Notes: generated from the sequence alone by a model not told the origin. A DNA stretch of 64,000 nt from Myxococcota bacterium (GCA_965223705.1 OZ245015.1:4288001-4352000), one strand, 5' to 3'. Shown: positions 25,281 through 44,079, numbered from the stretch's first letter. A program made the numbers and translations.

Positions 25281-25502
25281 CTACGCCGCGATGGCATCCG
25301 GGGGCTGCGAAGCCGCGGGCTTGGCCGCGGCGAGAACGCGCACTTCGGCGACGGGTCGGAGTGCCTCACGCTCCGGCGGCGGCTCCGGCGGCGCTTCCTG
25401 TGCGGCTCGCCAGGCCCGGATGCCCCGGAACAACCACAGAGCGATCCGCGAGCCCACGATAGCGATGACGACTTCTCCGCCCATCAGAAAGAACAACGGC
25501 AT
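25281..25502 (-). CDS. Small (73 aa) putative membrane protein
   Basis: Hydrophobic N-terminus, Pro/Ala-rich tail; GAGGA SD and TAGAAT -10 immediately upstream. Confidence 0.55.
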   Translation of the reverse strand: MPLFFLMGGEVVIAIVGSRIALWLFRGIRAWRAAQEAPPEPPPEREALRPVAEVRVLAAAKPAASQPPDAIAA

Positions 25503-25539
25503 GCTTTTCCTCGCTTCTTCGATTCTAGCAAGCCCCAAG

Positions 25540-25555
25540 ATGACGCCTCGATGAC
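25540..25555 (-). promoter_or_regulatory. Pho-box-like direct repeat GTCAT-n6-GTCAT, 12 nt upstream of a TAGAAT -10
   Basis: Plus-strand ATGAC at 25540 and 25551. Confidence 0.6.
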
Positions 25556-25572
25556 GAAATTGCTGCGCAAAC

Positions 25573-25599
25573 CTCACAATTCGGTCAACAGACTGTCGT
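25573..25599 (+). promoter_or_regulatory. Pho-box-like triple repeat CTCAC-n6-GTCAA-n6-GTCGT upstream of the response regulator
   Basis: Half-sites at 25573, 25584 and 25595, then TTAACT at 25610. Confidence 0.5.
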
Positions 25600-25643
25600 T
25601 CGCGGCTGGTTAACTCGGGATCTCCGGGGACGGGCGGAGGTTC

Positions 25644-26333
25644 ATGAACGGTCAAGGCGTACTCGTGGCTTGCTCCGACGAGGCAACCCGCAAAGAAATG
25701 GTGGAGAGTCTGCCGAGCGGCGCCATCCAGCTCCACGAGGCGCGGACGGGCCAAGAGGCAATGGCGCTCGTCCTACGAGAAAAGCCCAGCCTCGTGCTGA
25801 CCGACGCCGTCTTGAGCGACCAGCTGGGCCTCAGCCTGGTTCGAGAAATCCGCGACAACCCGGAGCTCGAGGCCACCCGGGTGGCCGTCATCTCTGCGTT
25901 CGCCAGCGAAATGGACCGGGTGATGGCCTTCGAAACCGGCGCAGACGACTTCGTCGCCCATCCTTTCTTCCGACGAGAGCTCACGGCGCGCATCTCGGCA
26001 CTGCTCCGCCGCGGCAGTGGCCCCCGCCGGCGCTCGACGCGTGAGCTCGACGGCGGAGGCGCGATTCAGATCGATCTCGACCGCAAGCGCGTCGAGGTAC
26101 ACGGCGAACAAGTGGATCTCACCCGCAAGGAGTTCGACCTCCTGACGGCGCTGGTTCGCAAATCCGGCCGCGTCGTCAGCCGCGAGAATTTGATCGACGA
26201 AGTCTGGGGCCCCGAGGTCCATCTCACCGAGCGCTCGGTGGACGCCCATATCAAGCAGTTGCGGCGAAAGCTCGGTACTGCTCGCGACACGGTCCAAACC
26301 GTTCGGGGCGTGGGCTACCGCTTCAGCGCCTGA
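25644..26333 (+). CDS. OmpR/PhoB-family response regulator with an atypical receiver
   Basis: DRVMAFETGADD, LTRKEFDLL, RSVDAHIKQLRRKL, VQTVRGVGYRF; GGAGG SD. Confidence 0.92.
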   Translation: MNGQGVLVACSDEATRKEMVESLPSGAIQLHEARTGQEAMALVLREKPSLVLTDAVLSDQLGLSLVREIRDNPELEATRVAVISAFASEMDRVMAFETGADDFVAHPFFRRELTARISALLRRGSGPRRRSTRELDGGGAIQIDLDRKRVEVHGEQVDLTRKEFDLLTALVRKSGRVVSRENLIDEVWGPEVHLTERSVDAHIKQLRRKLGTARDTVQTVRGVGYRFSA

Positions 26334-27335: not shown

Positions 27336-27342
27336 CGGGTCG

Positions 27343-27741
27343 TTAGTGGGTGGTGCTGAACGAGAGCGCCACCGCACCGCCTCGTTTCGCAGCGTCCCAG
27401 ACCTGAACGAACGTGCCGTGGCTCGACTTCTCGTGCGCGCGGATGGAGATCGGGGTTTCGGGCTCTTTGAGCGCGCCCTTTACGACCTCGCTCACTTCGG
27501 CGAGTGAGATCTCGCGGCGATCGATCAGGATCTTGTTCTCCGACGTGATCTCGAGCGCCAGGTTGTCGCTCTCCTCTTGGTCGACGGGCTCGGCGGCGTC
27601 GGGCTTGCTCACCTGCACGCCCTGCTCTTCGATAAAGACGGTCGTCACGATGAAGAAGATCAGCAAGATGAAGATGCAGTCGATCATCGGCGAGAGGTTG
27701 ATCTCGGTCGCTTCTTCCTCGCTGAGAATCCGCTTCGCCAT
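27343..27741 (-). CDS. exbD: Biopolymer transport protein ExbD/TolR
   Basis: [24 protein letters not shown]. Confidence 0.92.
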   Translation of the reverse strand: MAKRILSEEEATEINLSPMIDCIFILLIFFIVTTVFIEEQGVQVSKPDAAEPVDQEESDNLALEITSENKILIDRREISLAEVSEVVKGALKEPETPISIRAHEKSSHGTFVQVWDAAKRGGAVALSFSTTH

Positions 27742-27743
27742 CG

Positions 27744-28325
27744 CTAGCGAAAGTTTCCGCTCGAAAGCGTCAGGCTCTCGAGTCGCGCGAGCTGCGCTTC
27801 GAGGAGCTGTCGCTTTCGCTGAATCAACATCACGATGAAGAGCCCGGGCAACGCGATGGTGAGGCCCGTCTGGGTCGTGACCAGCGCTTCCGAGATCCCG
27901 GAGGCGACGACGCCGGCGGTCTCGCCGCCGCCGCTCGTCGAGATGCCGAAGAAGGTCTGCAGCATCCCGAGCACCGTTCCGAGCAACCCGAGGAGCGGCG
28001 CGGCCGCCACCAGTGTTTTGACGAACTGAGAGCGTCGATCGATCAGCGACAAGATGGCGAGGCGTACTTCGTCAAAGCGCGTCCGGACGTCGTCCTCGGT
28101 GGACGCGCCGGCCTGCGTATAGGCGATGATGCGACCGACCGGTCCCTCCGCCCGCTCGGGCGAACGCACCCATTCCCACCAGTGGAGCTCGGTTTCGTCA
28201 CCGAAGCTCGCGCGGCCGACGTAGAGCATCAACGCGAACGCCTGGGCGTAGAGAAGCACGGCGAGGGCGAAGAGCGGGATCATCACCCAGCCGCCCGAGA
28301 GCCAGATGTCGAGGATGCGGTCCAC
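27744..28325 (-). CDS. exbB: MotA/TolQ/ExbB proton channel protein (short)
   Basis: GGWVMIPL, AAPLLGLLGTVLGM, GISEALVTTQTGL. Confidence 0.92.
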   Translation of the reverse strand: MDRILDIWLSGGWVMIPLFALAVLLYAQAFALMLYVGRASFGDETELHWWEWVRSPERAEGPVGRIIAYTQAGASTEDDVRTRFDEVRLAILSLIDRRSQFVKTLVAAAPLLGLLGTVLGMLQTFFGISTSGGGETAGVVASGISEALVTTQTGLTIALPGLFIVMLIQRKRQLLEAQLARLESLTLSSGNFR

Positions 28326-29767: not shown

Positions 29768-29770
29768 CGG

Positions 29771-30526: not shown

Positions 30527-30583
30527 GGTGAGAGGCCTCCCTGAGGCCCCCAAGATATGGGGGACGTGTGACGGGAAATCGTA

Positions 30584-30637
30584 GGATGGAAAACGTTTCC
30601 ATCCGGGTTGACCCCGATTTCGTCGCGATTTCGTTAC
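30584..30637. promoter_or_regulatory. Perfect palindrome GGATGGAAA-acg-TTTCCATCC plus 11-bp tandem repeat GATTTCGTCGC/GATTTCGTTAC
   Basis: Seen directly at 30584-30604 and 30616-30637, upstream of the DUF3450-exbB-exbB-exbD unit. Confidence 0.55.
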
Positions 30638-30662
30638 TGAAATCTCTTGCACACGGGTCCCG

Positions 30663-31472: not shown

Positions 31473-31511
31473 AGAAGAACTCGTTCCATTCAGTGGTTGA
31501 TTGATTCAAGT

Positions 31512-31547
31512 GAAGCGCCGCCGCCCCGAGAAGGGCGACGGCGCTTC
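31512..31547 (-). terminator. Strong stem-loop downstream of the PEP-CTERM gene
   Basis: 15-bp arms GAAGCGCCGCCGCCC/GGGCGACGGCGCTTC (one G-U pair on the minus strand); weak U tract. Confidence 0.6.
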
Positions 31548-31573
31548 GAATCAGGCAAGGCCCGCTGACCGCC

Positions 31574-32371
31574 TTAGCGGCGCACGCGGCCCGCGCGCTG
31601 GAGGCCGAGGAGACCCGCCAGCAGCATGAGAGCCGTCGACGGCTCCGGAATCGGCGCCGTCGTCGCGCTGATACCGAGGTTGTCGATCGCGGTGTTGCCT
31701 TGGTCGAAGGTCAAGCGAACGAACGCCATCGTCCCACCGTCGAGGAGCCCCGGCAGATTGACATTGTAGAGCGCCGCCGCGTCGGTGAGGTTCAACGTGG
31801 TGACCGCGCTGTAGGCCGCACCATCCGCCGAAGCCTCGACTTGGATAGTTCCCGCGTCCGCGCCGAGAATCATCACGCCCGCCAGGTCGAGCATATACTG
31901 AGTGCCGAGCAAGCCGACTGTGGTGAGGTCCGACTTGAAGACGATGCTCGTCGCCGCGGTGGCTTCGAGGCTCACGTCCGAGTACGGAAAACCGCGAGCG
32001 GGGTCCTCGGCGAAGAGCTGGGGAAGGTTGTCAAACGGACTGTCGCCCGCGGGCGTCCCGTTCTGCGGCAGTGTGTCGCCCAAAGCCCCGAATTGGTCGA
32101 CGGTCGAAAGAACCGAAGCACTCGCAGAGGCACCGTTTTGACCGTTGATGAAAGCGGTACCGAACGCTCGGGACTCCGCTCCCACGCCCTGTGTAGGGTC
32201 GAAATCCGAGTAGAGGGCATCGAGTGCTTCGGCAGGAGCACCGGAGGCATCGATGAAGTTCACACCTGCTGCGACGTATTCTGAGAAGTCCCAGCCGGCG
32301 ATGAAGGCGGCGTTTGCGCTACTGGAAGCCAGTAGGAGCGAAGCCGCGATTGCCATGGTCTTTTTGATCAT
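31574..32371 (-). CDS. PEP-CTERM sorting domain protein
   Basis: Signal peptide ending ANA; IAGWDFS start; C-terminal IPEPSTALMLLAGLLGL-QRAGRVRR; alternative start 32386. Confidence 0.9.
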   Translation of the reverse strand: MIKKTMAIAASLLLASSSANAAFIAGWDFSEYVAAGVNFIDASGAPAEALDALYSDFDPTQGVGAESRAFGTAFINGQNGASASASVLSTVDQFGALGDTLPQNGTPAGDSPFDNLPQLFAEDPARGFPYSDVSLEATAATSIVFKSDLTTVGLLGTQYMLDLAGVMILGADAGTIQVEASADGAAYSAVTTLNLTDAAALYNVNLPGLLDGGTMAFVRLTFDQGNTAIDNLGISATTAPIPEPSTALMLLAGLLGLQRAGRVRR

Positions 32372-32386
32372 TAGAGCTTCCTTCAT

Positions 32387-32458
32387 TGCGCCTCACCAGA
32401 GGCGCACGTCATAAGTGCAGCGAGGTGCCGGGCCTCGCCGGAGCGGAGCCCGGCACCT
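32387..32458. other. Two intergenic hairpins (TGCGCCTC/GAGGCGCA; AGGTGCCGGGC/GCCCGGCACCT)
   Basis: Perfect 8-bp and 11-bp inverted repeats between the beta-helix gene and the PEP-CTERM gene. Confidence 0.6.
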
Positions 32459-32477
32459 GGAGAGCAGCTGCGTCCGC

Positions 32478-34163
32478 CTAGAGCAAGCCGGCGAGATCGA
32501 GCACGGTCCAACCGTCCGTCCAGAGCGGCTGACCGGCAATGAACCCGCCGCGGGTCGAGGACGTTCCCAGCGGAATCGTTCCGCCGATTGCACCCAACCC
32601 ACCCGGTCGAGGATCAATCGGGGCCGACTTGAGACCGGCGCTCAGCTTGTTTGCGGAGTCGCCCGTCGGGTCGAAGGACGTGTCGGCATTGCCGAAGGTC
32701 GCGCCGATCGTGTTTAAGCGGTTCACGCCGAGAGCCGAGGTCCGCGTGTCTGCGTCGCCGCAAGCGAGGAGCGCCAGCTCCGTTGCGTTCTGACCACCCG
32801 AACCACCTTGGAACGTCGAGGACAGCACTTCGGTCGTGCAGGCTTCCGGTGTCCCCGTGCCGTCGATTTGTTCGGCGGTGGAGAAGCCGGTGCATCCATC
32901 AGACGTGTTGTCGTCGACGTCGATGCCTTGACCGATCGGGTTGTTCACGATCGCGTTCACGAGCATGCCGCCGGCGCCGTTGCGGAATTGCACACCGCGG
33001 TTGTTGCCCACGCCTGCGACGCCCGTGGGCGTGAAGTCAGGCGAAGTGACGAGACCGGACCCGAAAGTGGTCCAGTTTGCGAACCGGAAGTTCGACTTCG
33101 GTCGGCAATCGGCCGTGATACCCTTGTCGGCATCGTTGAAGTCGTCGCCGTCGAGCTCGCCGGCCTTGTCGCCGGAGTCGGAGCCGAAGGTTCCGATGTT
33201 ATCGGTCTCGCCAAAGAAGGGCATAATGGCGAAGAGATCTTCATTCACGCCGGTGTAGCCCTGATCGGTGTCGAAGGAATCATCGCCGGCAAATGTCACC
33301 ATCAGATTGTTTCCGTTGACGGTTCCGCCGAACCATTCCATGCCGTCGTCGAAGTTCGCAAAGACCTCGATGAACTCGAAAACGGTCGCGTCGCCGACGC
33401 CGGCGAGAGTCACGCCATTGATCTCGTTCGCTGTACCGATCTGGTCGCCACCGTGTTTGACCTGGATGAATCGCATCGTGCCGCTGTAATCGTGGACCAG
33501 CGGATTCGCGCTGTTGCCGTAGGAAGCCTGGAGCGAGTCGACATCGCCCGGGAGCTCGATCCCCTCAACGGTGCACTCGCCGAGGAGGCTGCCTGACAAG
33601 CCCGCGCAATCGGAGCCGTTGCCGACGTTCACCGGTGCTTCGCCGAGGATCACGAGGCCACCCCAGAGCTGAACCGCCGCGGTGCCATCGGCGGCAAGCG
33701 GAGCGGACGGAACGGTCGTGGGCGTGTCGTCCCAGTACTGCGACTCGAGAGTCGCCCCGGTCGCCTGGTTGAGGAAGGCACCCGTACGGTCCGGCACGTT
33801 GTCCGAGTTGAGATCGAGAGCAGCCGTCGTGAAGATGATCGGGGACGTCGGGAGCCCTTGGGCTTCGAGCGCACCTTGGCGCGTGATAATCAGAGAGCCA
33901 GGAGCTCCGGCCGAGCCCGCGGCGGAACGCCCCTGTCCGCGAACGACGCAGCCAGGGAGAATTGTGAGCACGACCGGCTCGCCACCCTTCGTTCCGTCAC
34001 CGACGGCCACCGGGCCGTCGAGCAGAATCGGGCAGGGATTCGGCGCGACGCCCCAAGTCTCGGACGACGCGATCGTGCCCGACTTCACTGTGCTTTGAGC
34101 ACCTGCCGAACCGGCGACACCGGCGACGGCAAGGGCAATCAAGGCAGTCAACAATCTGCGCAT
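32478..34163 (-). CDS. Exported beta-helix-like protein of a family found beside TonB-dependent receptors
   Basis: Signal peptide; LTILPG, PIIFT, WGGLVILGEAP, EINGVTLAGVG, DDGMEWFGGTVN, GDDSFDTDQGY, WTDGWT; GAGGA SD. Confidence 0.85.
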   Translation of the reverse strand: MRRLLTALIALAVAGVAGSAGAQSTVKSGTIASSETWGVAPNPCPILLDGPVAVGDGTKGGEPVVLTILPGCVVRGQGRSAAGSAGAPGSLIITRQGALEAQGLPTSPIIFTTAALDLNSDNVPDRTGAFLNQATGATLESQYWDDTPTTVPSAPLAADGTAAVQLWGGLVILGEAPVNVGNGSDCAGLSGSLLGECTVEGIELPGDVDSLQASYGNSANPLVHDYSGTMRFIQVKHGGDQIGTANEINGVTLAGVGDATVFEFIEVFANFDDGMEWFGGTVNGNNLMVTFAGDDSFDTDQGYTGVNEDLFAIMPFFGETDNIGTFGSDSGDKAGELDGDDFNDADKGITADCRPKSNFRFANWTTFGSGLVTSPDFTPTGVAGVGNNRGVQFRNGAGGMLVNAIVNNPIGQGIDVDDNTSDGCTGFSTAEQIDGTGTPEACTTEVLSSTFQGGSGGQNATELALLACGDADTRTSALGVNRLNTIGATFGNADTSFDPTGDSANKLSAGLKSAPIDPRPGGLGAIGGTIPLGTSSTRGGFIAGQPLWTDGWTVLDLAGLL

Positions 34164-34352: not shown

Positions 34353-37300
34353 TCAGAACGTTCGCCGATAGGAAAGGGAGACCGAATAGTCCCGCCCGGA
34401 GCGGAACCGCCGCTCGTAAATGTCGCTGCTTGTCTGCTCGGGGTCGTAGAGGACACCCCGTTGGCTGTCGAGGAGGTTCTTCGCACTGAACTTCAGGACC
34501 AGCGGTTCGAACGTTTCCTTGCCCGGGCGAAGAAACCCGAAGCTCTGGCTGAACACCAAGTCGAGCTGAGAAAAGCCATCGGTGAACTGATCCAGGATCA
34601 GCGAGTTGACCTGTCGGTTCGGGGCGATCTGAGCCACGCCTGCGGCGTTGAGGACATCACTGATCGAGAAGAGCGCTAGGGTGGCCTTCGTTCCCCAAGC
34701 CGGATGGTCGAAGCTCAAGTCGACGTTCGCGATCCACTCCGGCTGTCCGAAAAGGCGCCGCTTCTCCTCGAGACCGCCGAAACGAGCGAGGCCGTCCGCT
34801 TCCGTCGTGCCAAAGAACCCCTCTGAGCGCGCGAGGGTCGCGAAACCGCGTTCCACTTCGGCGTCGATGTACGTGAAATTCCCGCCGATCGAGAAGTAGC
34901 TCGGGAACTCGGACTTGATCGGCTGGTAACCAAAGATCTTCCCGGCCAGGAAGCCCAGGTTCTTGCGCGCCTCGAACTCGAAACCGAGGAGATCGGCATC
35001 TGTCTGGTTGTTGAACCACGTGCGATAAAACGCGAACGAAGTCGAGTCATTGATCGTAGGATCGCGGAGCACGATCTTCTCGATCGGATCCTCAATCGTT
35101 TTATGAAATACGCTGAACGCGACCAGATCGCCTTGGTCGCCCCAGGTGTACTCCAAGCGCGCGTCGAAACTCTCGACTCTCGAGACGTCGAGCTGCGGGT
35201 TCCCGACCTCGAGACCGCTGCTGTCGACGGGAATCGTGACGTAGTAGCCGAGCTCGCGAAAAGACGGACGCGCGACCGTCTTTGAATAGGCGAGTCGTAG
35301 ATTGACACCTTCGAAGGGGCGATAGCCGACACCAATCGTGGGAAGGAAGAACCGCTCGTCGAGCTCCCCGTCGATCAGACTGTTGGGATCATCGACATCC
35401 ACGAATCCCGTGGCTGGATCGATTTGGACGTCGAGCCCGAGAATCTCGTCATTGAACACTGTGCCTGGGACCGCCGTGCCCTCGGTTCGCGTCACCGAAT
35501 TGTCGAGTCGGTCGAAAAACAAATAGCGAGAGGGAAAGACTTCGGGCGCTCCGAGAATCACTTTCGGATCGCCGTTTCGATCGAACGCCCGAGCGTCATT
35601 CGCCGAGGTCAAGCGCAGCGATTCGACGCGAAACCCGCCGAAGACATCGAACACATCCCAGAAGGTGAGCTTCGTATCGAAGTTGAAGGACCAGACCCGC
35701 CTTTCGGACTCGTTGCTCGACAATTGGAGGTTCACCAGTCGGTCCGTGTCGGGGTCCACCGCCAAGCTCGGGATCAGATTGGTCCCCACTTCCTCGAACG
35801 AATCGCCGAGCGCGATCCCCTGCGAGAAGTTCGCCAAGCAAATATCTCGCTCGAATCGACAGCGCTCTTGATCGAACAGAACGCCATCGCCGAGGAAACT
35901 CGCCCCGACATCGCGATCGGAGTTTTCGTACCAGCCGCCGGCGCGGATCGTCCAATCGACGAATCCGAACAATGACCGCTCGTAGCTGATGTCGAGGCGT
36001 GCGAAGTTCTGATTCTCTTCAATTTCGGTGTCGCTGAGCAAAATGTCGTCATTAATCGCGAAGACGCCGTCGCGTTCCGTTATCGGGTAGGTCTCCGGAA
36101 TGAAGGCAAGGTCCGGAGACGTGTTGAAGATCCGGTTCCTCAGTCCGAATTCTTCCTGGTCTGTTCGCGCCGTGTTGGCCACCCAGTTGATCTCGAGCCC
36201 TTCGAAGCGGTCCCAGCGGTGAGACCCATTGATCTGAAAGAGAGTCAGCGAACGCTCGCGATCGACACCCCGACCTTCGTTCACGTTCGACAGCCACTGA
36301 TGCCCTCGGAGAGGCGACGATGTGCGTCCACCCTCGTCGGAGTTGATATTGAACGCGATCCACGACCCCGGTGTCGCGAAGTTGTTGAAGCTGTCGGCAG
36401 AGACCGCTTCTCCCTGCAGTGTGTCGTCGACGAACACGTCGTAGTCGAACCCGGGAATGAAGCCGTTTTCTTTGTGCTGGACGATTTCCTCTTCCTTTTT
36501 CGTGTCGAAGAACGTGAAATCGATGGTGTGGTTCCCCTCGGTGTCGAGGTCGAAACCCAAGCCGCTAAACGCGGTGCGTTGCAGGACGCGCTCGCTCTGG
36601 GTGAGCTCGAACAGGCCTTCCGAGAGGTTGAGCTCGCCGAAGGCGAGGTCTCCGGACTGCTCTTCTCGCAAACCGGCGACTTCAAAACCGAACGGCGGTG
36701 TGATCAAGAGGTTCCGGCGACGCGGTTCCCGCGTTTCCTGAAATCCCTCCGACGTGGAGTAGTCGATCTCGTTGCTCAAGATCGCCTTGAAGCGGACGTT
36801 GCGACCGAAGAGTTCGTTGTTTCCTCCGGCGGAGACCTTGAAATCTGTCTCGAACGGGTTTGACCGGTCGCCACCCGTCGATGATTGGTCGTTGTACCGG
36901 AGGAACGTGTCCTGGGCTCGGTCCTCGAGCCCAGCGCCGGCGCTGAACTCGATGAAGAAGTTGTCTTCGGTGTACTGGTCGGTGCGGATGTCGATCGTAC
37001 CGCCCGCGGAGTTTCCGGGCGCGTCTGCGCCGAAGGTCTTCGCCACGACCAAGTTCGAGACGACTTCCGCGGGAAACAGATCGAGCTGAACCGATTGGCT
37101 CTCCGGGTCCGGGCTCGGTACCGGCGCGCCGTTAAAGAGCGTGCTGCTGTACCGATCTTCGAGGCCGCGAATAATGGCGAACTGCCCCTCGACGATGTTG
37201 ACGCCGGCCACGCGCTTGAGCGCATCGGCCACGTCGCTGGCCGCGAACCGCGAGAGGTCCTCGGCGCTCATGATGTTCAGCAGTTCATCGGACTCGAGCC

Positions 37301-37847
37301 GCAGCTCGAGCGATGTCATGATCTCGCTCACCGTAGACGCTTCGACGACGAACGCTTCGAGGTCGAGCACCTCGCGGCCTTCTTCGGTGGGGAGCGGCGG
37401 CATCGGAAAATCGGCGCGGTTCAGTTGCCCGGCGACGACCTGAAAGTCGGTCATGGTCGATGCTCGGTAGCCAGACTTCACGAAGCTCAGGCTGTACGAG
37501 CCTTCGGGGATCGAAGGAAACGTGAACGCGCCGTCCGGGTCGGTGAGCTGAACTTCCTGGCGGGGTTCGGATCCATCGCCGGGGTCGGGCCACACGACAA
37601 TGACCGAAACACCTGATACGGGCACGCCTGCTTCGGAATCGAACACCTGACCTGCCACACTTCCGTGGCCCGCCGCCGCTTCCGTCGCGGGTGCATCTTT
37701 GTCGACCGCGCTGGCGCTACCGATATTGCCGAGAACGTCTTCGAGGTCTCCCTGTGCCGACACGGGGAGCGCCATCATCAGGCAGAGCGCTGTGGCGGCG
37801 ATGATTGCAAGAGCGCAATGCGCCAGGTGGGGAGCGATTCGCTTCAT
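34353..37847 (-). CDS. Large TonB-dependent receptor with N-terminal carboxypeptidase-regulatory-like extension
   Basis: Signal peptide; GSVAGQVFD…GSYSLSFVKSGY extension; plug DVADALKRVAGV…IRGLEDRY…LDLFP; ARPSFREL, GNPQL, KNLLD; C-terminal Phe. Confidence 0.95.
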   Translation of the reverse strand: MKRIAPHLAHCALAIIAATALCLMMALPVSAQGDLEDVLGNIGSASAVDKDAPATEAAAGHGSVAGQVFDSEAGVPVSGVSVIVVWPDPGDGSEPRQEVQLTDPDGAFTFPSIPEGSYSLSFVKSGYRASTMTDFQVVAGQLNRADFPMPPLPTEEGREVLDLEAFVVEASTVSEIMTSLELRLESDELLNIMSAEDLSRFAASDVADALKRVAGVNIVEGQFAIIRGLEDRYSSTLFNGAPVPSPDPESQSVQLDLFPAEVVSNLVVAKTFGADAPGNSAGGTIDIRTDQYTEDNFFIEFSAGAGLEDRAQDTFLRYNDQSSTGGDRSNPFETDFKVSAGGNNELFGRNVRFKAILSNEIDYSTSEGFQETREPRRRNLLITPPFGFEVAGLREEQSGDLAFGELNLSEGLFELTQSERVLQRTAFSGLGFDLDTEGNHTIDFTFFDTKKEEEIVQHKENGFIPGFDYDVFVDDTLQGEAVSADSFNNFATPGSWIAFNINSDEGGRTSSPLRGHQWLSNVNEGRGVDRERSLTLFQINGSHRWDRFEGLEINWVANTARTDQEEFGLRNRIFNTSPDLAFIPETYPITERDGVFAINDDILLSDTEIEENQNFARLDISYERSLFGFVDWTIRAGGWYENSDRDVGASFLGDGVLFDQERCRFERDICLANFSQGIALGDSFEEVGTNLIPSLAVDPDTDRLVNLQLSSNESERRVWSFNFDTKLTFWDVFDVFGGFRVESLRLTSANDARAFDRNGDPKVILGAPEVFPSRYLFFDRLDNSVTRTEGTAVPGTVFNDEILGLDVQIDPATGFVDVDDPNSLIDGELDERFFLPTIGVGYRPFEGVNLRLAYSKTVARPSFRELGYYVTIPVDSSGLEVGNPQLDVSRVESFDARLEYTWGDQGDLVAFSVFHKTIEDPIEKIVLRDPTINDSTSFAFYRTWFNNQTDADLLGFEFEARKNLGFLAGKIFGYQPIKSEFPSYFSIGGNFTYIDAEVERGFATLARSEGFFGTTEADGLARFGGLEEKRRLFGQPEWIANVDLSFDHPAWGTKATLALFSISDVLNAAGVAQIAPNRQVNSLILDQFTDGFSQLDLVFSQSFGFLRPGKETFEPLVLKFSAKNLLDSQRGVLYDPEQTSSDIYERRFRSGRDYSVSLSYRRTF

Positions 37848-37901
37848 CGATTTTTGCTCGGTCGGCAACGCTTTCGGATGCGCCGGTACTCTACTGATGG
37901 T

Positions 37902-37977
37902 CCGATGAATCGGAGCCTCACTCGCGTGATGAAACCGGGGTGATTCTGTGACGCGACGGAGGCGCGCCGATGAATCG
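37902..37977 (-). promoter_or_regulatory. Three half-sites at 22-bp spacing plus a duplicated CCGATGAATCG
   Basis: Plus-strand GTGAT 37926, GTGAC 37948, ATGAA 37970; CCGATGAATCG at 37902 and 37967. Confidence 0.5.
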
Positions 37978-37985
37978 CGTTCGCA

Positions 37986-39341
37986 CTAGCGGGGGCGTAC
38001 GGCTCCTTCGACGCGGGCGAGGAATCGTTCGACGCGCGGCTCGCGCTTGATCGCGAGCGCATCGCGCAGGAGCTCGGCCGCCTTCGCGTAGTCGCGACCG
38101 GTAACGGCGAACTGAGCGTGCTCGAGCAGCGCGCGATATTCGAAGTCGTCGAGCTTTCGGGCGCGCTCCACCAGGAGAATCGCACGCTCTTCCTGACCGC
38201 GTCCGTGGTAGTAGGACGCGAGCTCGAGCAGTGCCTCTCCGCGGGTCCCGTCGCGATCGACGATGGATTCCAGCAGCTTCGCCGCTTCTTTCTCGCGACC
38301 TTCGGCGCGCGCGACCTTCGCTTTCAGGGTCAGCACCTTGAGCTCGTCCTCTTGCGAAAGCTCCTTGGCGTAGCGCGCGTCGACGGAGTTGAGGATTTCT
38401 TTTGCCGAGTCGAACGAGCGCGTCCGAATCAAGAGCTCAGCCGCGCGGTACGCCGTCGTAAACTGGCCGCCGCTCTTGTCGGAACGAATCACGTCGAGGT
38501 ACGCGTTCTTCGCTAAGTCGTACATCCCCGCGTTCATGTAGATATCGCCGAGCAGCACGAGACTGCTGGTCTCGGTTTTTCCCATCATGCGAACGGCTTC
38601 TAAGTTGGTCGCGGCATCCATCGGTTGCTCGAGCCCGATGTACGCGTTGGCCTGGAGCATCCAGGCACTGACGTCGCTGGGATCGTCTTCGATCAAGCTT
38701 TGGAACAGGGCTACGGCCTCGCGGTGCTGGTTCGTCGCGAGAAGTGCGCGCGCCAGGCCGAGCTGCCAATCTCGCGTGTCGGGCTCCTGCAAGATCGCGT
38801 TGCTGTACGCCTCTTTCGCCGCCAGGTTCTTCTCGAGGTTGATGTAGCAGTAGCCGAGCAGGCCGTAGTTCCGGCCGTCGCGGTCGCCGAGCTCGACCGC
38901 GCGGCCGAGGTGCGCAGCACCGCCTTTGAAATCGCCCTTCTGGACGCGCAGGAGTCCCAGGTTCTTGTGGGCGCGCCGGAAGTCCGGAAACTTGTCGATC
39001 GCGCTGCTGTAGTGCTTGGCGGCGGAATCGAGCTGACCGTTCTGAAAACTCAGGTTCGCGAGGACGAAGTCGAGCGCCGCACTACTGTCGCCGGTGATCT
39101 GTTGCGCGAGGACGCTTTCCGCAGCTTTGGGGTTGGCCTTCATCAGCCCGATGACTTCCCGCAGCAACTCGAGCTCGGTGTCTTTGACCTGAGGCTCGGC
39201 GCCGGAGAGAAAGCCGTAGCTTCCGAGAAAGCGCTTCTTCCACTCGGGATCGTCCAAGAATGAGGAGATCTCCGGAGAAGTTGCCGCGGTCGCCGCGCTG
39301 GCGAGTAGAACGAAACAGGCTGCGAGGATTGTTGTGCGCAT
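37986..39341 (-). CDS. Periplasmic tetratricopeptide repeat protein (TtpD-like)
   Basis: Signal peptide; TPR helices (AHKNLGLL, YGLLGYCY, AWMLQANAY, LLGDIYM). Confidence 0.9.
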   Translation of the reverse strand: MRTTILAACFVLLASAATAATSPEISSFLDDPEWKKRFLGSYGFLSGAEPQVKDTELELLREVIGLMKANPKAAESVLAQQITGDSSAALDFVLANLSFQNGQLDSAAKHYSSAIDKFPDFRRAHKNLGLLRVQKGDFKGGAAHLGRAVELGDRDGRNYGLLGYCYINLEKNLAAKEAYSNAILQEPDTRDWQLGLARALLATNQHREAVALFQSLIEDDPSDVSAWMLQANAYIGLEQPMDAATNLEAVRMMGKTETSSLVLLGDIYMNAGMYDLAKNAYLDVIRSDKSGGQFTTAYRAAELLIRTRSFDSAKEILNSVDARYAKELSQEDELKVLTLKAKVARAEGREKEAAKLLESIVDRDGTRGEALLELASYYHGRGQEERAILLVERARKLDDFEYRALLEHAQFAVTGRDYAKAAELLRDALAIKREPRVERFLARVEGAVRPR

Positions 39342-39404
39342 CACCGGCGAGGCTACTCGATCGGAATGCGCCGAAGTGTTCCGGTCGAGCCGTTCGGCCG
39401 TCTC

Positions 39405-39431
39405 TTCAACACTTCGTCATCGATTCTTCAA
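39405..39431 (+). promoter_or_regulatory. TTCAA-n6-GTCAT-n6-TTCAA 11-bp phased repeat overlapping the inverted repeat CGAAGTGTT/AACACTTCG
   Basis: Half-sites at 39405, 39416 and 39427; IR arms 39372-39380 and 39408-39416. Confidence 0.5.
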
Positions 39432-39432
39432 A

Positions 39433-40365
39433 CTAGGGCGATCCGCTGTAAAAGGCCTCGAGCACGACGCGACCGGCGCTTCCCAAGCTCAGTGGCGAGC
39501 ACTTGTCGAGTGTGTCGTCCTGGGTGTGCCACGGCGGATAGTCGAGATCGATCAACACAGCCGCGGGGAATCCGATCTGGAGGAACGGCGTGTGATCGTC
39601 GATGATCGCCTGACCCAAGCGAGGGACAAAGGCCCCTTCGTTTTGGCGACGGGCGGCGTCAAAGAGCTTTTTCGTGAGCGCGGGAAAGCGCTGCGCGCCG
39701 GTGCGCTCCTGGAAGATCTCGAGCTCCGCGTCGCCGACCATGTCGACGATCACCACGGCTTCGGGACGCGCATTCGGACGAAGTCGTTTCCAGTGCTTCG
39801 CCATGTAGCGGGAGCCGACGAGGTAGTCTTCGAGCTCACCCGCACGACCGAAGTCTTCTCCGTCGAAGAAGGCCACCTCGAGTCCCGGTTCCGCGCCCGC
39901 TTCGGCGACGACACGAGCGATCTCGAGCAACACCGCGACGCCGGATCCGCCGTCGTTTGCCCCGACGATCGGCCTCGCGCGCCCCATCGGATCGTCGTCG
40001 AGATCGCCCCACGGCCGCGTGTCGTAATGCGCACCGAGCAGGATCCATGAACCGTCGCGGCCTCCGATGAGCCCGGTGATGTTCGTAAAGTCGCGCGGAG
40101 CGCTCTCGTGCCGGGCTTGGTACTTGAGCGGAATGTCTTCGACCGTAGCGCCCAGCGCTTCGAGGTGTTTCCGGATATAGCGCTGAGCTCGCTCATGCCC
40201 CGGCGTCCCCGGGGCGCGCGGCCCCATCGCGACGAGATTCTGGAGGTGAGTCCAAGCGCGCTCCTCCGAGAAGCGCGCGGCGAGATCGGCGGAAACGGGA
40301 TCGGCTCCGGGTTTCGAACCGCAGGCCAAGACGAAGACAACGAGGAAGCCGTGGATCCACCGCAC
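39433..40365 (-). CDS. M28-fold lipoprotein, glutaminyl cyclase-type
   Basis: Lipobox VLAC; GAHYDTRP, GANDGGSG, FDGED, VDMVG, IDDHTPF, WHT. Confidence 0.82.
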   Translation of the reverse strand: MRWIHGFLVVFVLACGSKPGADPVSADLAARFSEERAWTHLQNLVAMGPRAPGTPGHERAQRYIRKHLEALGATVEDIPLKYQARHESAPRDFTNITGLIGGRDGSWILLGAHYDTRPWGDLDDDPMGRARPIVGANDGGSGVAVLLEIARVVAEAGAEPGLEVAFFDGEDFGRAGELEDYLVGSRYMAKHWKRLRPNARPEAVVIVDMVGDAELEIFQERTGAQRFPALTKKLFDAARRQNEGAFVPRLGQAIIDDHTPFLQIGFPAAVLIDLDYPPWHTQDDTLDKCSPLSLGSAGRVVLEAFYSGSP

Positions 40366-40374
40366 CCGCAGAGG

Positions 40375-41934
40375 TTAGTTCACGCGAATCGGAATCGGCA
40401 GACGCGCCCGCGCCGAAACGGGCTGCCCGTCCCGCGTCGGGGGTGTGAACTTCCACGTTCGGACCTGGGTGAGGACAAACGCTTCGAACTCCGGCAGATC
40501 CGACGAATCGATATCGGCGGTCAGGACCTCGCCTTCTGCGCTGAGCTCGACGGACAACACGATCTCGCCTTGGATCTTCTTGCGCCGCAGCTGCCAAGGT
40601 AACTCGAGCCCCGCGCTACCGACCGGCCGCGGCGGTCGGTCGAGATCGGTCGCGTTGTGAATGCGCGCGAGCTCTTGCGCGCGCTTGAGCGCGGCAGCCC
40701 GCTTCGCGTCGCGGTGCGTTCGCTCGTGTCGAGCCAGCGCGGCCCGCGCATCACCGCGTTGATACAGCCCACGGAACCCTTCGTGCGAGCACGCACCGTC
40801 CGCGCAAAAGATCTCCCACAGACTCGCGGCGGCGAGTTCCGATGCGCTCGCGCCGCCGACTTGTGGATCGTTGACGACGAGCGTCGCGATCGCGATGCGC
40901 GGCTCATCCGCCGGAGCCACACCGATAAACCACTGATAGAGACCTTCCGGCGCGTGCCCGCTCAAGGTCCCGGTCTTACCGGCGACGGAAATCTCGCCGA
41001 GAAAGGGCGAGCCCGAAGCGTTGTGGAAAGCGCGGCGCGCGGTTCCACTGCGGGTGACCGAAATCAAATGCTCGCGCAGTTCGGCTGTGAGCTCGGGCGT
41101 CCAAACCGCTTCCGCCGGCCGCGCTTCGGGGATTTCGTAGTCGTTTCCATAGCGATCCCGAATGCGTGCGATCCAGTGGGGCGTCACCAGACCACCGTTG
41201 GCGAGAAGCGCTGCGAGACGGGCCGCGCTGAGCGGCGTGATGAACGAGCCGGCGAGTCCCGAACCGAGCCGGCCGAGATCGAAGGGACCTTCGCCGCTGT
41301 CGATCTCACCCGTCGCGTGCCCCGGCGCTGGCGCTTCGAGCAGTCCGGCGCGCTCGATCTCGTCGACGAGTAGCGTCTCGCCGACGTCTCGCGCGGCGAA
41401 GCGTGCGAAGCACTGATTGTTCGAGTTTGCGAGAGCGGTGCGGAACGTTTCGACGACTCCGCCTTCCCGAGGAGGCGTAAAGTCGCCACCGTGCAACGCG
41501 TAGCGGTTTCCCGTGTATCGGCACGGGCCCCGTGCCGCATCGGGAGCGTGTTTTAGAACCGCTGCAGCCGTGACAACTTTCATCAGCGACGCGGCCGGGT
41601 AAGCGCGCGTCGGCGGGAAGGCCTCAGGATCGGTCGAAAGGTAGGCGAACACTGCGCCGCTCGACGCATCCATCACGAGGATGTGACCGCGGTCGACCTC
41701 GCGCTCTGTGAGTAGGGCCCGCAGATTGGACTCGAGCATCGGATCGGTCGTGTATTCGACTTCGTAGTCGCCGACGCGCTCAAGCGTGCGAAGTCCTGCT
41801 GCGGGAACCGTCGCTTGCGACGCCCGCGCTCCCGGGGGCAAGCGTTCGAAGAGTTCCTGCGCCGGCTCCGCACCCGCGGGACACCCGAAAACGAGCGCCC
41901 CGAGCAGCGCGAGTGTTCGGACGCGCCCGCTCAA
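40375..41934 (-). CDS. Penicillin-binding transpeptidase domain fused to a TonB C-terminal domain
   Basis: SLMK (SxxK), SNN (SxN), KTGT, WFIGVAP; C-terminal WKFTPPTRDGQPV TonB_C. Confidence 0.88.
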   Translation of the reverse strand: MSGRVRTLALLGALVFGCPAGAEPAQELFERLPPGARASQATVPAAGLRTLERVGDYEVEYTTDPMLESNLRALLTEREVDRGHILVMDASSGAVFAYLSTDPEAFPPTRAYPAASLMKVVTAAAVLKHAPDAARGPCRYTGNRYALHGGDFTPPREGGVVETFRTALANSNNQCFARFAARDVGETLLVDEIERAGLLEAPAPGHATGEIDSGEGPFDLGRLGSGLAGSFITPLSAARLAALLANGGLVTPHWIARIRDRYGNDYEIPEARPAEAVWTPELTAELREHLISVTRSGTARRAFHNASGSPFLGEISVAGKTGTLSGHAPEGLYQWFIGVAPADEPRIAIATLVVNDPQVGGASASELAAASLWEIFCADGACSHEGFRGLYQRGDARAALARHERTHRDAKRAAALKRAQELARIHNATDLDRPPRPVGSAGLELPWQLRRKKIQGEIVLSVELSAEGEVLTADIDSSDLPEFEAFVLTQVRTWKFTPPTRDGQPVSARARLPIPIRVN

Positions 41935-42593
41935 TTGATTTGAATCGGAATCGGCAATCGCGCTTGTGCGCGCACCGGTCGACCCTGTTGCGTGGGCGGA
42001 GTGAACTTCCAGTCTCTGACTTCGGCGAGGATGAAGTTGTTGAAGTCGGGAAGCGTGGAAGAATCGAGCTGCACGTCCATGACGTCGCCGCCGGTGTCGA
42101 GCTTGACGAGCAGGACGACGCGCCCCTTGACTTTCTTTTTCAACAACCGACGCGGAAAGTTGAACCCCGAGACACCGATCGGTCGCGGCGTTTGATCGAG
42201 GCTTGAGAAATCGACGAAGTCCTCGGTTCCGAGATCGCGCGACGAAGTCCCGATCGTCGGCATCGCGAAGTCTCCCGCGAGCGATCCTCCCGTGCCGGGG
42301 TTGAGGGCGATATCGAGCTGGTCGAGCGAGAGCTGCGGCGGATCCTCTTCGAGCTCCGGCGGCGGCGGCTCTTCCTCAGGCGGGGGCAGTTCTTCTTCCT
42401 CGATTTCCTCGATGTCGGGCGGCGTGTACGCCATGACCATCTCATCGATCTCTCGGGTCGGCGGCTTGACCTTCCCCATCATCTGTACGAGGGCCATCAC
42501 CAAGAAGAGAACCACCGCGAAGAGCACCCCTGCCGCGAGGCCTGCGCGAGCCTCACCGGGGCGTTCGGGCAATCGAAACGTTCGCTTCGGCAT
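41931..42593 (-). CDS. tonB: Energy transducer TonB
   Basis: N-terminal TM, E/P-rich linker, C-terminal GRVVLLV…WKFTPPTQQGRPV. Confidence 0.92.
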   Translation of the reverse strand: MPKRTFRLPERPGEARAGLAAGVLFAVVLFLVMALVQMMGKVKPPTREIDEMVMAYTPPDIEEIEEEELPPPEEEPPPPELEEDPPQLSLDQLDIALNPGTGGSLAGDFAMPTIGTSSRDLGTEDFVDFSSLDQTPRPIGVSGFNFPRRLLKKKVKGRVVLLVKLDTGGDVMDVQLDSSTLPDFNNFILAEVRDWKFTPPTQQGRPVRAQARLPIPIQIN

Positions 42594-42603
42594 TGGGGGG
42601 CCC

Positions 42604-43008
42604 TCAGTCGTTTCGCGTTGAGAGGCTGATCTTCTTGGCCCCGGCGTTTTTGACTTCGCTCCAAACGTCGGAAAAAACGCCGTGGTCCGCGCGCGCGTCC
42701 GCCTGGATGATGACGGGCAACTCGTCGCGGGTGAGAAGCTGTTTCACTCGCGCGCCGACGCCCGAGACGCCGAGCTCGCGTCCGCCGTAAACCACTTTGT
42801 TGTCGGCGGAAACCGCGATGATGATGCTGTTCTTTTCGAGGTCTTCGTCCAAAACCGCGTCGGGTTTCGCGATCTCGACCCCCGGTTCTTCGACGAAGAC
42901 GGTCGTCACGATGAAGAAGATCAACAGGATGAAAATGCAGTCGATCATCGGAGACAGGTTGATCTCCGTTTCGGTATCCGGATCTTCGAGGACGCTTCTT
43001 CGGGCCAT
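42604..43008 (-). CDS. exbD: Biopolymer transport protein ExbD/TolR (second copy)
   Basis: [31 protein letters not shown]. Confidence 0.92.
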
Positions 43009-43311
43009 GATCTGACATCGAGGGTGGACGAAGGCGCGGGCGGGGCAAAGCCGCTTCGGGTGAAGAAGAAGTTACGTTTGGAAGAAGGCCGGCCGCGGCT
43101 TCCCGAATTGTGTGACGAAACCGCCCGACACACGCCTCCGAAAACCAACACCGAAAGCGCGTTCCGTTCGCCACACTGTGGTCCGTGCGAATCCATCGGT
43201 GGCAGTGGCGCCGAACGCACCATGGAGCGCACGGGGACCCCCAATCCCCGAAAGAACACTACGGACGGAAAACCCAAGCTAGGCGCCAAGACAGATACCG
43301 GAGCCCGAACC

Positions 43312-44079
43312 ATGTCACGCTGGTTTCTAGGCTTCCTGTTCGGCTTCACGTCGACGCTGATCGCCTTGACGATCGGGTCGCAGGAAGCCCAGGCTGCTTC
43401 ACTCAACTTCAACAGTCTCGCCAGCGGCGAGGTCGTCTCCACCCAGTTCGCTGGGCAAGGGGTGACGATCAGCGCCATCAACCCAAACCAACCGTTCGAC
43501 CTAGCCGTCGCTTTCGACGGGGACGACCCGGCGGCGGCCGCCGCCGACCCGGATCTGGTCGGTCCCTTTTCGAGCGGGAACCTCGCCGGGCAGGACGTGG
43601 GAAACCTGTTGATCGTCGCCGAGAACAACGTCGACGGGAACAGCGACGGATTGATCGACTCGCCGGATGATCAGGGCTCGGGTTCCGGCGCCACGTTCGT
43701 CCTCGACTTCGCGATGAGCGTCGCGAGCTTCGGTTTCGATCTCATCGACATCGACGCCGACGAAACCGGCGAGATCCGGCTCTTCGGAGCGAGCGGAGTG
43801 ACCTCCTTCCTCTTTCGGGACCTCCCCGGACCCACCGTGTTCGGCGACAACTCCGCGAACCGCGTCGACCCATTGATCGCCGGTTCGGAAGGTTGGGATC
43901 GCGTCGAAATCGAGCTGTCCCGCTCGGGCGCAATCGCGAACGTGAACTTCACCGTGGTTCCAGAGCCTGCGAGCGGGTTGGCTGTCGCCCTAGGGCTCGC
44001 CGGCCTGGCGGGCTGGCGGAGGCGAAGACTGCGCGCCGCCTCGCCAGCCCGCTCCGCACGGAACCCCCATTCTTCGTAG
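43312..44079 (+). CDS. PEP-CTERM sorting domain protein
   Basis: Signal peptide ending AQA; C-terminal VPEPASGLAVALGLAGLAGWRRRR; GGAG SD. Confidence 0.88.
   Translation: MSRWFLGFLFGFTSTLIALTIGSQEAQAASLNFNSLASGEVVSTQFAGQGVTISAINPNQPFDLAVAFDGDDPAAAAADPDLVGPFSSGNLAGQDVGNLLIVAENNVDGNSDGLIDSPDDQGSGSGATFVLDFAMSVASFGFDLIDIDADETGEIRLFGASGVTSFLFRDLPGPTVFGDNSANRVDPLIAGSEGWDRVEIELSRSGAIANVNFTVVPEPASGLAVALGLAGLAGWRRRRLRAASPARSARNPHSS

What the first reader, a model, noticed from the sequence alone, without database searches (positions are those of the whole stretch)
25281..44079. Candidate undescribed envelope system: TtpC-type TonB motor, large receptor, beta-helix partner, PEP-CTERM proteins, PBP-TonB fusion and glutaminyl cyclase beside a PhoB-like regulator
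Seen: 13 co-oriented minus-strand genes in the order exbD, tonB, PBP-TonB, M28/QC, TPR, TBDR, beta-helix protein, PEP-CTERM, lipoprotein, DUF3450, long exbB, exbB, exbD. A second PEP-CTERM gene is divergent, and an orphan OmpR/PhoB regulator sits at the far end. Established: DUF3450 + long ExbB + ExbB + ExbD + TonB + TPR is the component set of Vibrio TtpC-TonB2 systems; PEP-CTERM marks exosortase-processed surface proteins; in Myxococcus xanthus the TonB-dependent transporter Oar acts in protein (PopC) secretion. Inference: a self-contained trans-envelope machine with its own wall-remodelling and N-terminal capping enzymes. It could serve nutrient (possibly phosphorus) scavenging or export/display of the co-encoded surface proteins. 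I know of no description of this combination.
Basis: partly seen in the sequence, partly recalled or inferred. Interest (0 to 1): 0.85.

Follow-up and report, generated by a model that had tools for sequence, protein, structure and literature searches.

The report
Phosphate-starvation importer with wall-editing tag
This gene cluster joins two known parts, a six-protein TonB-type motor and an outer-membrane receptor with a beta-helix partner, behind DNA boxes shared with the phosphate-uptake genes, so it likely imports a phosphorus source during starvation; its unusual extra is a predicted cell-wall enzyme carrying a copy of TonB's docking domain, which would bring it to the receptor.

Summary
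All 13 minus-strand genes, the regulator and the second PEP-CTERM gene are there. They are not one new machine. (1) Receptor + beta-helix is the ElpS/BT4056/Fjoh_0546-type pair, published as phosphate-starvation induced and as a predicted transporter lid (membership shown indirectly; here the beta-helix has no lipid anchor). (2) The motor is Vibrio Ttp-type; motor plus pair also occurs in Pseudoalteromonas. (3) New here: a Pho box learned from relatives' loci marks pstS in 18 of 24 relatives, the beta-helix gene in 12 of 12 held-out loci, and this operon's start (rank 5 in the genome). Phosphorus scavenging is likely; the cargo is unknown. (4) The PBP-TonB fusion is a real, catalytically intact but optional accessory (14 of 161 order genomes, plus one partial); two other genomes carry an unrelated M15-type peptidase fused to the same TonB domain in the same slot. 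(5) Glutaminyl cyclase and the second PEP-CTERM gene are not conserved in the locus. The scan noted this cluster and the PBP fusion before in other genomes. No expression or binding data.

The parts
43060..43077 (-). Pho-box-like direct repeat (ACGTAAC-N4-TCTTCAC), 69-52 nt before the exbD start; predicted PhoB site of the operon
   Evidence: 18.0 bits, rank 5 of 4.54 million positions, matrix trained on relatives only; pstS boxes of relatives sit mostly at -56 to -116
42604..43008 (-). ExbD (second exbD of the canonical order; first gene here)
   Evidence: PF02472 98.7 bits
41931..42593 (-). TonB
   Evidence: PF03544, N-terminal membrane segment, Pro/Glu spacer
40375..41934 (-). Secreted-type PBP transpeptidase domain fused to a TonB C-terminal domain; optional accessory
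   Evidence: PF00905 + PF03544; SLMK/SNN/KTG, intact in 82 of 83 near-full fusions; 47 of 91 C-terminal residues identical to the neighbouring TonB
39433..40365 (-). M28 lipoprotein, likely type II glutaminyl cyclase; passenger in this genome
   Evidence: best PDB hit 6qro glutamine cyclotransferase E 4e-41; only copy in the genome, about 35% homologues in 17 of 40 relatives, none in the locus
39403..39431 (+). Three Pho-box-like half-sites at 11-bp period, antisense to the TPR gene; role unexplained
   Evidence: 16.6 bits twice, rank 18
37986..39344 (-). TPR protein (TtpD position)
   Evidence: TPR families; found in 6 of 41 genomes
34353..37847 (-). TonB-dependent receptor, 1164 aa, carboxypeptidase-regulatory-like N-domain, TonB-box-like stretch LEAFVVEA (163-170)
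   Evidence: PF13620/PF13715, PF07715, PF14905, PF00593; V167 in 43 of 46 aligned rows
32478..34163 (-). ElpS/BT4056-like right-handed beta-helix protein, cleavable signal then Gln, no lipobox; predicted receptor partner (lid)
   Evidence: 37% over 292 columns to the L077 lipoprotein; Gln23 in 66 of 72 aligned, lipobox in 1 of 120
31574..32386 (-). PEP-CTERM protein, clade-specific partner
   Evidence: in 27 of 34 locus groups that hold beta-helix + the next gene; 2 exosortases in the genome
30663..31472 (-). Secreted protein, lipobox here, thioredoxin-like by language-model features (a lead only), no CxxC
   Evidence: always with the receptor (34 of 34 groups)
30620..30637 (+). Weaker Pho-box-like repeat before DUF3450 (antisense), as in many relatives
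   Evidence: 11.2 bits; 10 of 15 held-out DUF3450 upstream regions reach 12 bits
29771..30526 (-). DUF3450 protein (TtpB)
   Evidence: PF11932 80.3 bits; TtpB2 = DUF3450 in PMC6957404
28325..29767 (-). Long ExbB (TtpC-type)
   Evidence: 480 aa, PF01618 at 330-445
27744..28325 (-). ExbB
   Evidence: PF01618
27343..27741 (-). ExbD (first exbD of the canonical order; last gene here)
   Evidence: PF02472
26403..27335 (+). Overlooked secreted-type hypothetical protein (DUF6263-like lead), linked to the enzyme-TonB fusions
   Evidence: in 9 of 116 locus groups, 8 of them with a PBP- or M15-TonB fusion
25644..26333 (+). Atypical PhoB-like response regulator, member of a locus-linked clade with a degenerate receiver
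   Evidence: TIGR02154 176 bits, cut-off 296; clade of 15 rows, support 100/99
43312..44079 (+). Second PEP-CTERM gene; bystander
   Evidence: PF07589 26.2 bits; 0 of 116 locus groups

Best explanation
The locus encodes a TonB-dependent receptor, a beta-helix partner and a Ttp-type motor behind Pho-box-like repeats, and is likely a phosphate-starvation uptake system whose optional PBP-TonB fusion would dock at the receptor and edit the cell wall locally. Steps: (shown) gene set, domains, intact catalytic motifs, boxes shared with pstS. (Inferred) When phosphate runs low, the genome's PhoB (C1:689067, beside pstSCAB-phoU) switches the operon on; the degenerate locus regulator may tune it. (Inferred from published homologues) The beta-helix binds the outer face of the receptor and helps capture a phosphorus-bearing substrate of unknown kind. 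(Established for TonB systems) ExbB/TtpC/ExbD use the proton gradient to drive TonB, which pulls the TonB box. (Inferred, untested) The soluble PBP-TonB fusion uses its TonB domain as an address tag for the same box and changes peptide cross-links where the motor crosses the wall. Glutaminyl cyclase is a housekeeping passenger that could act on the Gln-starting proteins but is not needed in the locus. Odds: Pho control about 0.85; uptake about 0.7; docking and wall editing about 0.4.
For: Matrix trained on 71 upstream stretches of relatives' loci reaches 10 bits, sense strand, before pstS in 18 of 24 relatives, versus 0 of 24 coding controls, 5.2% of shuffles, and 4, 1, 4, 5 of 24 at spacings 9, 10, 12, 13. 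Held-out loci at 12 bits: beta-helix 12 of 12, DUF3450 10 of 15, regulator 5 of 8; shuffles 2-4%. In this genome the operon start ranks 5, phoB 10, the pst-operon porin 12; other top non-coding hits precede a choice-of-anchor I protein, an ArsJ-type GAPDH-like gene and a GT4. Distant homologues lie beside pst, phoU, ppk or PHO4 genes in 5 of the 21 distant loci whose neighbours were partly scanned (L032, L062, L065, L068, L074). L077 repeats the Pfam layout of F. johnsoniae PUSIV; L164 repeats Caulobacter's elpS-receptor-T2SS layout. Receptor beside beta-helix in 77 of 88 groups. Fusion: 14 genomes plus one partial of 161; 10 lie in the system's locus; an M15-like peptidase with the same TonB domain sits right after tonB in G030 and G097.
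Against: No RNA, protein or binding data. No ElpS, Fjoh_0546 or BT4056 sequence was available, so family membership is indirect. The beta-helix lacks the lipid anchor of ElpS (1 of 120), and how it would reach the surface is unknown. In this genome no 11-bp box precedes the beta-helix gene (3.4 bits) or the receptor (9.4), and three of four boxes are antisense to the next system gene. The motif seed was chosen after I had seen the window's spacers. The fusion is dispensable: 21 of 34 genomes with this tonB lack any fusion, none was seen in family f11 (19 genomes), only 2 of 10 fusions have their own box, and G085 and G102 keep the fusion far from the receptor pair with no TtpC or TPR found. 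Deleting cc0171 did not abolish ElpS production, and Caulobacter elpS and cc0171 were reported to be regulated apart (PMC2996285).
Confidence: 0.6

Rival explanations
1. The machine exports or displays its own surface proteins (beta-helix, PEP-CTERM protein) through the receptor, as the first reader proposed by analogy to Oar/PopC (analogy recalled, not checked).
For: The beta-helix has no lipobox or PEP-CTERM tail (1 and 0 of 120), so it needs another route or anchor. The motor is elaborate (two ExbB, two ExbD). The receptor is large (1164 aa).
Against: The same pair sits beside a type II secretion system in an alphaproteobacterium, and ElpS release needs T2SS in Caulobacter. The published model is a lid on an importer. 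The PEP-CTERM partner is missing in 7 of 34 groups.
Confidence: 0.15
2. Pho-controlled uptake is right, but the enzyme-TonB fusions do not dock on the receptor: the TonB domain binds peptidoglycan or another motor part (TPR, TtpB), or competes with TonB as a brake.
For: Fusions are optional and sometimes unlinked. In Tol-Pal a TPR protein (CpoB) links TolA to PBP1B (PMC7391070).
Against: Two fusion genomes retain the beta-helix but no detectable TPR or TtpC, which fits the receptor better than TPR as partner. The domain stays about 50% identical to the operon's TonB.
Confidence: 0.2
3. An iron or vitamin uptake system like Vibrio TonB2, with the other genes accidental neighbours.
For: Same six motor components; TonB2 moves siderophores (PMC6957404).
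Against: Pho boxes are conserved before three locus genes; the receptor has no sequence match among solved structures and scores far below cut-off against haem or siderophore receptor models. Fur boxes were not scanned.
Confidence: 0.05

Closest known systems
ElpS/CC0171 (Caulobacter), Fjoh_0546/0545 = PUSIV (Flavobacterium johnsoniae), BT4056/BT4055 (Bacteroides): PMC2996285, PMC8115612, bioRxiv 10.1101/2023.03.17.533168
   Same: Pectin-lyase-like beta-helix encoded beside a non-SusC TonB receptor with PF07715 + PF13715 + PF14905; tied to phosphate starvation; a response regulator often adjacent.
   Different: Beta-helix is not a lipoprotein here; followed by a PEP-CTERM protein and a thioredoxin-like protein; own Ttp motor; regulator is degenerate and has no kinase beside it. 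Direct sequence comparison with the named proteins was not possible.
Vibrio TonB2/TonB3 (ttpB-ttpC-exbB-exbD-tonB-ttpD): PMC6957404
   Same: DUF3450, long ExbB, ExbB, ExbD, TonB, TPR; receptor inside the operon as in TonB3.
   Different: Two ExbD; order circularly permuted in this genome (cut between the two exbD); Pho boxes rather than iron control; optional wall-enzyme fusion.
Pseudoalteromonas sp. Bsw20308 locus (NZ_CP013139.1, L165)
   Same: DUF3450-ExbB-ExbB-ExbD-TonB-hypothetical (TPR position)-beta-helix-receptor in one run; beta-helix 27% and receptor plug 41% identical to the window's.
   Different: Lipoprotein with two beta-helix units; no PBP fusion, PEP-CTERM, M28 or regulator hit; single ExbD. 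An annotated genome locus, not a studied system as far as my searches show.
Tol-Pal CpoB-TolA-PBP1B: PMC7391070
   Same: A proton-driven ExbB/ExbD-like motor coupled to a wall transpeptidase.
   Different: There a separate TPR adaptor regulates a membrane-bound synthase at the septum; here the enzyme is soluble and carries the TonB domain itself.
PusCD1/2 of Bacteroidota: bioRxiv 10.64898/2026.09.03.749221
   Same: Proof that receptor + surface partner complexes import organic phosphorus.
   Different: SusD-type lids; the beta-helix loci (pus3, pus4) remain without a known substrate in that paper.

Membership tests
Ttp (TonB2/TonB3) system | TtpB = DUF3450 protein of about 255 aa | tested here: met
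   PF11932 80.3 bits over cut-off 32.6, 251 aa
Ttp (TonB2/TonB3) system | TtpC (long ExbB) plus ExbB, ExbD, TonB | tested here: met
   long ExbB 36% to the Pseudoalteromonas protein over its membrane part
Ttp (TonB2/TonB3) system | TtpD: about 425-aa TPR protein after tonB | tested here: inconclusive
   452-aa TPR protein in that position; no Vibrio sequence compared, and no tblastn hit to the matching gene of L165
Ttp (TonB2/TonB3) system | One contiguous ttpB-to-ttpD operon | tested here: not met
   Split and permuted in the window; contiguous in most relatives
Vibrio TonB2 | Iron-regulated siderophore uptake | not testable with these tools
   Pho boxes argue against; Fur boxes not scanned
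ElpS/BT4056/FII receptor-partner pair | Pectin-lyase-like beta-helix fold | tested here: met
ElpS/BT4056/FII receptor-partner pair | Adjacent receptor with PF07715, PF13715, PF14905 | tested here: met
   against the Fjoh_0545 row; 77 of 88 groups
ElpS/BT4056/FII receptor-partner pair | Sequence homology to the named proteins | tested here: inconclusive
   Named sequences unavailable; 37% to L077 (PUSIV layout) and 35% to L164 (Caulobacter layout)
ElpS/BT4056/FII receptor-partner pair | Partner is a lipoprotein | tested here: not met
   Cleavable signal then Gln; lipobox in 1 of 120 close homologues. Hence filed as a variant.
ElpS/BT4056/FII receptor-partner pair | Induced by phosphate starvation | tested here: inconclusive
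   Pho-box-like repeats conserved; expression itself not measurable here
PhoB (window regulator) | TIGR02154 cut-off and intact receiver (acidic pair, Asp, Lys), kinase partner | tested here: not met
   176 of 296 bits; Lys replaced by His, acidic pair degraded; the pst-linked regulator is another gene (258 bits, also under cut-off)
Type II glutaminyl cyclase | M28 fold with single-zinc QC motifs, lipoprotein | tested here: met
   E 4e-41 to 6qro with aligned GANDGGSG, DGEDFG, DMVG, DDH, WHT motifs (motif roles recalled); activity untested
Class B / PbpA-type PBP | SxxK, SxN, KTG motifs | tested here: met
   82 of 83 near-full fusions; PDB hits SpoVD, PbpA
Class B / PbpA-type PBP | Membrane anchor and N-terminal pedestal domain | tested here: not met
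   Signal-peptide-like N-terminus by eye, no dimerisation-domain hit
M15/LAS zinc peptidase (fusion in relatives) | SxHxxGxAxD and distal His, LAS fold | tested here: inconclusive
   Motif residues invariant in 24 of 24; best domain match 1lbu DD-peptidase Z 7.4, rmsd 3.5, 99 aligned; Pfam below cut-offs
Oar-type protein secretion | Receptor needed for export of a cargo protein | not testable with these tools
   no test

The most novel reading that the evidence does not exclude
The TonB C-terminal domain has been recruited twice, onto two unrelated wall peptidases (a serine PBP and an M15-type zinc enzyme), as an address tag that brings the enzyme to a loaded receptor's exposed TonB box, so that substrate binding outside triggers local peptidoglycan editing for a phosphate-starvation import machine: the first TonB uptake system with a dedicated, receptor-targeted wall enzyme.
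Probability: 0.35. Interest if true: 0.75.

Novelty: new variant of a known kind. Interest (0 to 1): 0.52.

Why it matters
It ties three things the literature treats apart: the Ttp motor (function of TonB3-like operons unknown), the very widespread ElpS/BT4056 receptor pair (621 genera, substrate unknown) and the Pho regulon. That gives a direct test: phosphate limitation, in a cultured Pseudoalteromonas with the same motor and pair. The enzyme-TonB fusions bear on how TonB crosses the wall; if they dock on the receptor they are a new use of the TonB domain. The clade's Pho box is a reusable result for an uncultured group.

Tried and rejected
Complex prediction (TPR + fusion TonB domain): queue full, never ran; no verdict. 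Sequencing runs: no RNA holder listed. PDB sequence search: nothing for beta-helix or receptor; Foldseek no hit at E 0.001 for either model. PF28492 is not in the local Pfam. A scan with the E. coli-type Pho consensus gave little; sigma-70 and terminator scans were at chance level. Tree of 55 TonB domains, 93 columns, largely unresolved: it cannot count origins, but the window's fusion does not group with its own tonB, and third-position identity is 50%, so a recent duplication is rejected. A genome-wide 'Gln after signal peptide' rule: crude regex, 11 of 158, inconclusive. Lipobox versus PEP-CTERM trade-off: 4 of 7 against 3 of 25, regex missed some, kin not independent. QC as a system part rejected (4 of 11 beta-helix relatives have it, versus 17 of 40 overall). 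Literature searches without a description of the PBP-TonB fusion or of a Pho-controlled Ttp operon: (listings only; open-access library, so absence is weak). PMC12872454 was irrelevant. Supplements not opened; bioRxiv ones are closed and may hold BT4056 homologue tables.


Full report
OBSERVATION. The 13 minus-strand genes, the plus-strand regulator and the divergent PEP-CTERM gene are at the stated places with the stated domains. GC content is flat. Short-read contigs from two coded runs carry 27661-38870 and 38958-42201 unbroken. The nearest titled homologous loci are mostly Myxococcota or Deltaproteobacteria assemblies, so the host is likely an uncultured Myxococcota (inference).

WHAT IS CONSERVED. 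The beta-helix protein was found in 13 of 41 genomes, one only weakly. In all 11 relatives with a full copy the order is receptor, beta-helix, PEP-CTERM, secreted protein. Across 125 fetched loci, merged into 116 distinct groups, 88 hold the beta-helix; 77 of these hold the receptor, 36 a regulator, 34 the secreted protein, 29 the PEP-CTERM gene, 1 an M28 gene, 0 the second PEP-CTERM gene (loci are cut at 20 kb or contig ends, and kin are not independent). The motor is a separable module: some relatives have a plain ExbB/ExbD set or none nearby. Where present, its usual order is DUF3450, long exbB, exbB, exbD, exbD, tonB, TPR, receptor, beta-helix. The window is a circular permutation of this, cut between the two exbD genes. 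So the conserved unit is receptor + beta-helix; motor, PEP-CTERM partner and fusion are layers on it; glutaminyl cyclase and the second PEP-CTERM gene are local.

THE CORE IS KNOWN. The model is a right-handed beta-helix (PF28492). Le Blastier 2010 (PMC2996285; part 1 of 6 and passages) describe ElpS, made under phosphate starvation, beside receptor cc0171 and T2SS genes. Lidbury 2021 (PMC8115612; passages) list Fjoh_0545 (PF07715, PF13715, PF14905) and Fjoh_0546 (pectin-lyase fold) in the phoBR cluster, strongly induced by phosphate depletion. Price 2023 (bioRxiv 2023.03.17.533168; part 1 of 3 and passages) link BT4056, Fjoh_0546 and ElpS, find the pair in 621 genera and predict a lid with few confident contacts. 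I could not obtain those sequences. Indirectly: homologue L077 is a lipoprotein in a GT28, kinase, regulator, receptor layout like PUSIV (37% to ours), and L164 shows beta-helix, receptor, T2SS as in Caulobacter. Difference: ours has a cleavable signal and no lipobox. The motor has the six Ttp parts (PMC6957404; passages), and motor plus pair stand together in Pseudoalteromonas. Connolly 2026 (bioRxiv 2026.09.03.749221; parts 1-3 of 6) show SusD-type PusCD importing inositol phosphates and leave the beta-helix loci unassigned.

PHO CONTROL. Gibbs sampling on upstream regions (window included) gave a CGTCAC-type repeat, information 15.1-15.8 bits versus 11.5-12.9 for shuffles. I then trained a tied half-site matrix, 11-bp period imposed, on 71 stretches from relatives only (seed chosen after seeing the window). 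Independent tests: before pstS it reaches 10 bits on the sense strand in 18 of 24 relatives (24 of 25 loci usable), 0 of 24 coding controls, 5.2% of shuffles, with wrong spacings at 1-5 of 24. In 36 held-out regions (4 duplicates dropped) it reaches 12 bits before the beta-helix in 12 of 12, DUF3450 10 of 15, regulator 5 of 8, but receptor 2 of 19, fusion 2 of 10, TPR 1 of 21, exbD 0 of 19. In this genome the best locus site lies 69-52 nt before exbD, the new first gene, rank 5 of 4.54 million; 3 of 3745 upstream windows score as high. So the rearranged operon carries a box where relatives have none. Against: no strong box before this genome's beta-helix gene, three antisense boxes, and many top genome hits lie at unrelated genes. 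The regulator falls in a 15-row clade found at these loci (100/99), next to pst-type PhoB with weak support (90/83), with the acceptor Asp often Glu or Ala and the Lys lost in several: an atypical paralogue, not the genome's PhoB.

THE FUSIONS. The PBP-TonB protein belongs to a family of about 90 clusters (91 full-coverage rows, 89 with both Pfams) with catalytic motifs intact in 82 of 83 near-full members. Its enzyme domain forms a branch apart from the stand-alone paralogue found in most relatives (24 versus 20 rows, SH-aLRT 100, unrooted). Of 161 order genomes 38 have this TonB-domain subfamily. I fetched hits for all but one (G154, open frame 225 aa): 14 genomes have the PBP fusion, one a partial, two an M15-type fusion. 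Ten PBP fusions and both M15 fusions lie in the system's locus; G104, G030 and the window use the slot between tonB and TPR, and G097 has its fusion directly after tonB. Thirteen of 34 genomes with the stand-alone tonB have a fusion; family f11 shows none. Four have a fusion without that tonB: G064 has TtpC, G085 and G102 have the beta-helix but no TtpC or TPR found, G146 nothing found (drafts, 89-93% complete). All 23 relatives of the M15-like domain found at that length carry TonB_C; motif residues are invariant and the fold matches zinc DD-peptidases at middling Z. The hypothetical gene at 26403 accompanies a fusion in 8 of 9 groups. Two unrelated wall enzymes on one docking domain, in one slot, argue that the tag is selected for; what it binds was not tested, since the complex job never ran.

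GLUTAMINYL CYCLASE. Best match is a bacterial glutamine cyclotransferase. Beta-helix, receptor and long ExbB are predicted to start with Gln after cleavage (66 of 72 for the beta-helix), so it could cap them, but it is unlinked in every relative and no more frequent in beta-helix genomes.

EARLIER NOTES. This scan reported the cluster (e1-7819375) and the PBP fusion (e1-9856948, e1-7819364) in other genomes; I read them after reaching the same points. The excerpts shown do not mention Pho boxes or the M15 fusion.

VERDICT. New variant of known kinds: an ElpS-type, likely Pho-controlled uptake pair on a Ttp motor, with an optional wall enzyme tagged by a TonB domain. Interest 0.52.

Noticed in passing
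L081:6086-6925 (-); L162 about 340-1100 (-): M15/LAS-like zinc peptidase fused to the operon-type TonB domain, directly after tonB; family of 23 clusters, all with TonB_C.
   Followed up: yes
window 25281-25505 (-), box at 25540-25557 (-): The box before the regulator points the other way, about 35-52 nt before a possible 74-aa membrane protein (MPLFFLMGG...) inside the 25281-25754 ORF; perhaps a small Pho-regulated gene.
   Followed up: no
window 27343-43008: Gene order is a circular permutation of the relatives' order with the cut between the two exbD paralogues, and a Pho box before the new first gene.
   Followed up: partly
window 34164-34352 and 37848-37985: GTCAC/ATCAC half-sites at 22-bp spacing before the beta-helix and receptor genes, with poor middle half-sites; possibly weak or decayed boxes.
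   Followed up: partly
L021, L024, L124, L137, L142, L143, L144: Where the PEP-CTERM partner is missing, the following secreted protein more often has a lipobox (4 of 7 versus 3 of 25 by a crude regex): the two may be alternative anchors.
   Followed up: partly
G000:C1:4284563, 361234, 4480975, 1513937: Strongest other Pho-box-like sites: near a regulator/VWA gene pair 3.4 kb before the window, before an ArsJ-type GAPDH-like gene, a GT4 glycosyltransferase and a choice-of-anchor I protein; a first sketch of this genome's Pho regulon.
   Followed up: partly
G000:C1:537724-538716 (L087): Stand-alone secreted-type PBP transpeptidase domain without pedestal, present in most relatives of the order; the likely parent of the fusion and itself uncharacterised.
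   Followed up: partly
L031, L034, L055, L074: Tandem arrays of 3-5 beta-helix units or genes beside the receptor in Flavobacteriales and other phyla.
   Followed up: no
L122, L132, L134, L140: Second copies of the same tonB subfamily outside the Ttp operon in four genomes; neighbours not examined.
   Followed up: no
window 45747-51007 (-): Lhr helicase followed by an Fpg/Nei glycosylase, and apparent phenylacetate-CoA oxygenase genes at 51027-53057 (by eye); ordinary.
   Followed up: no
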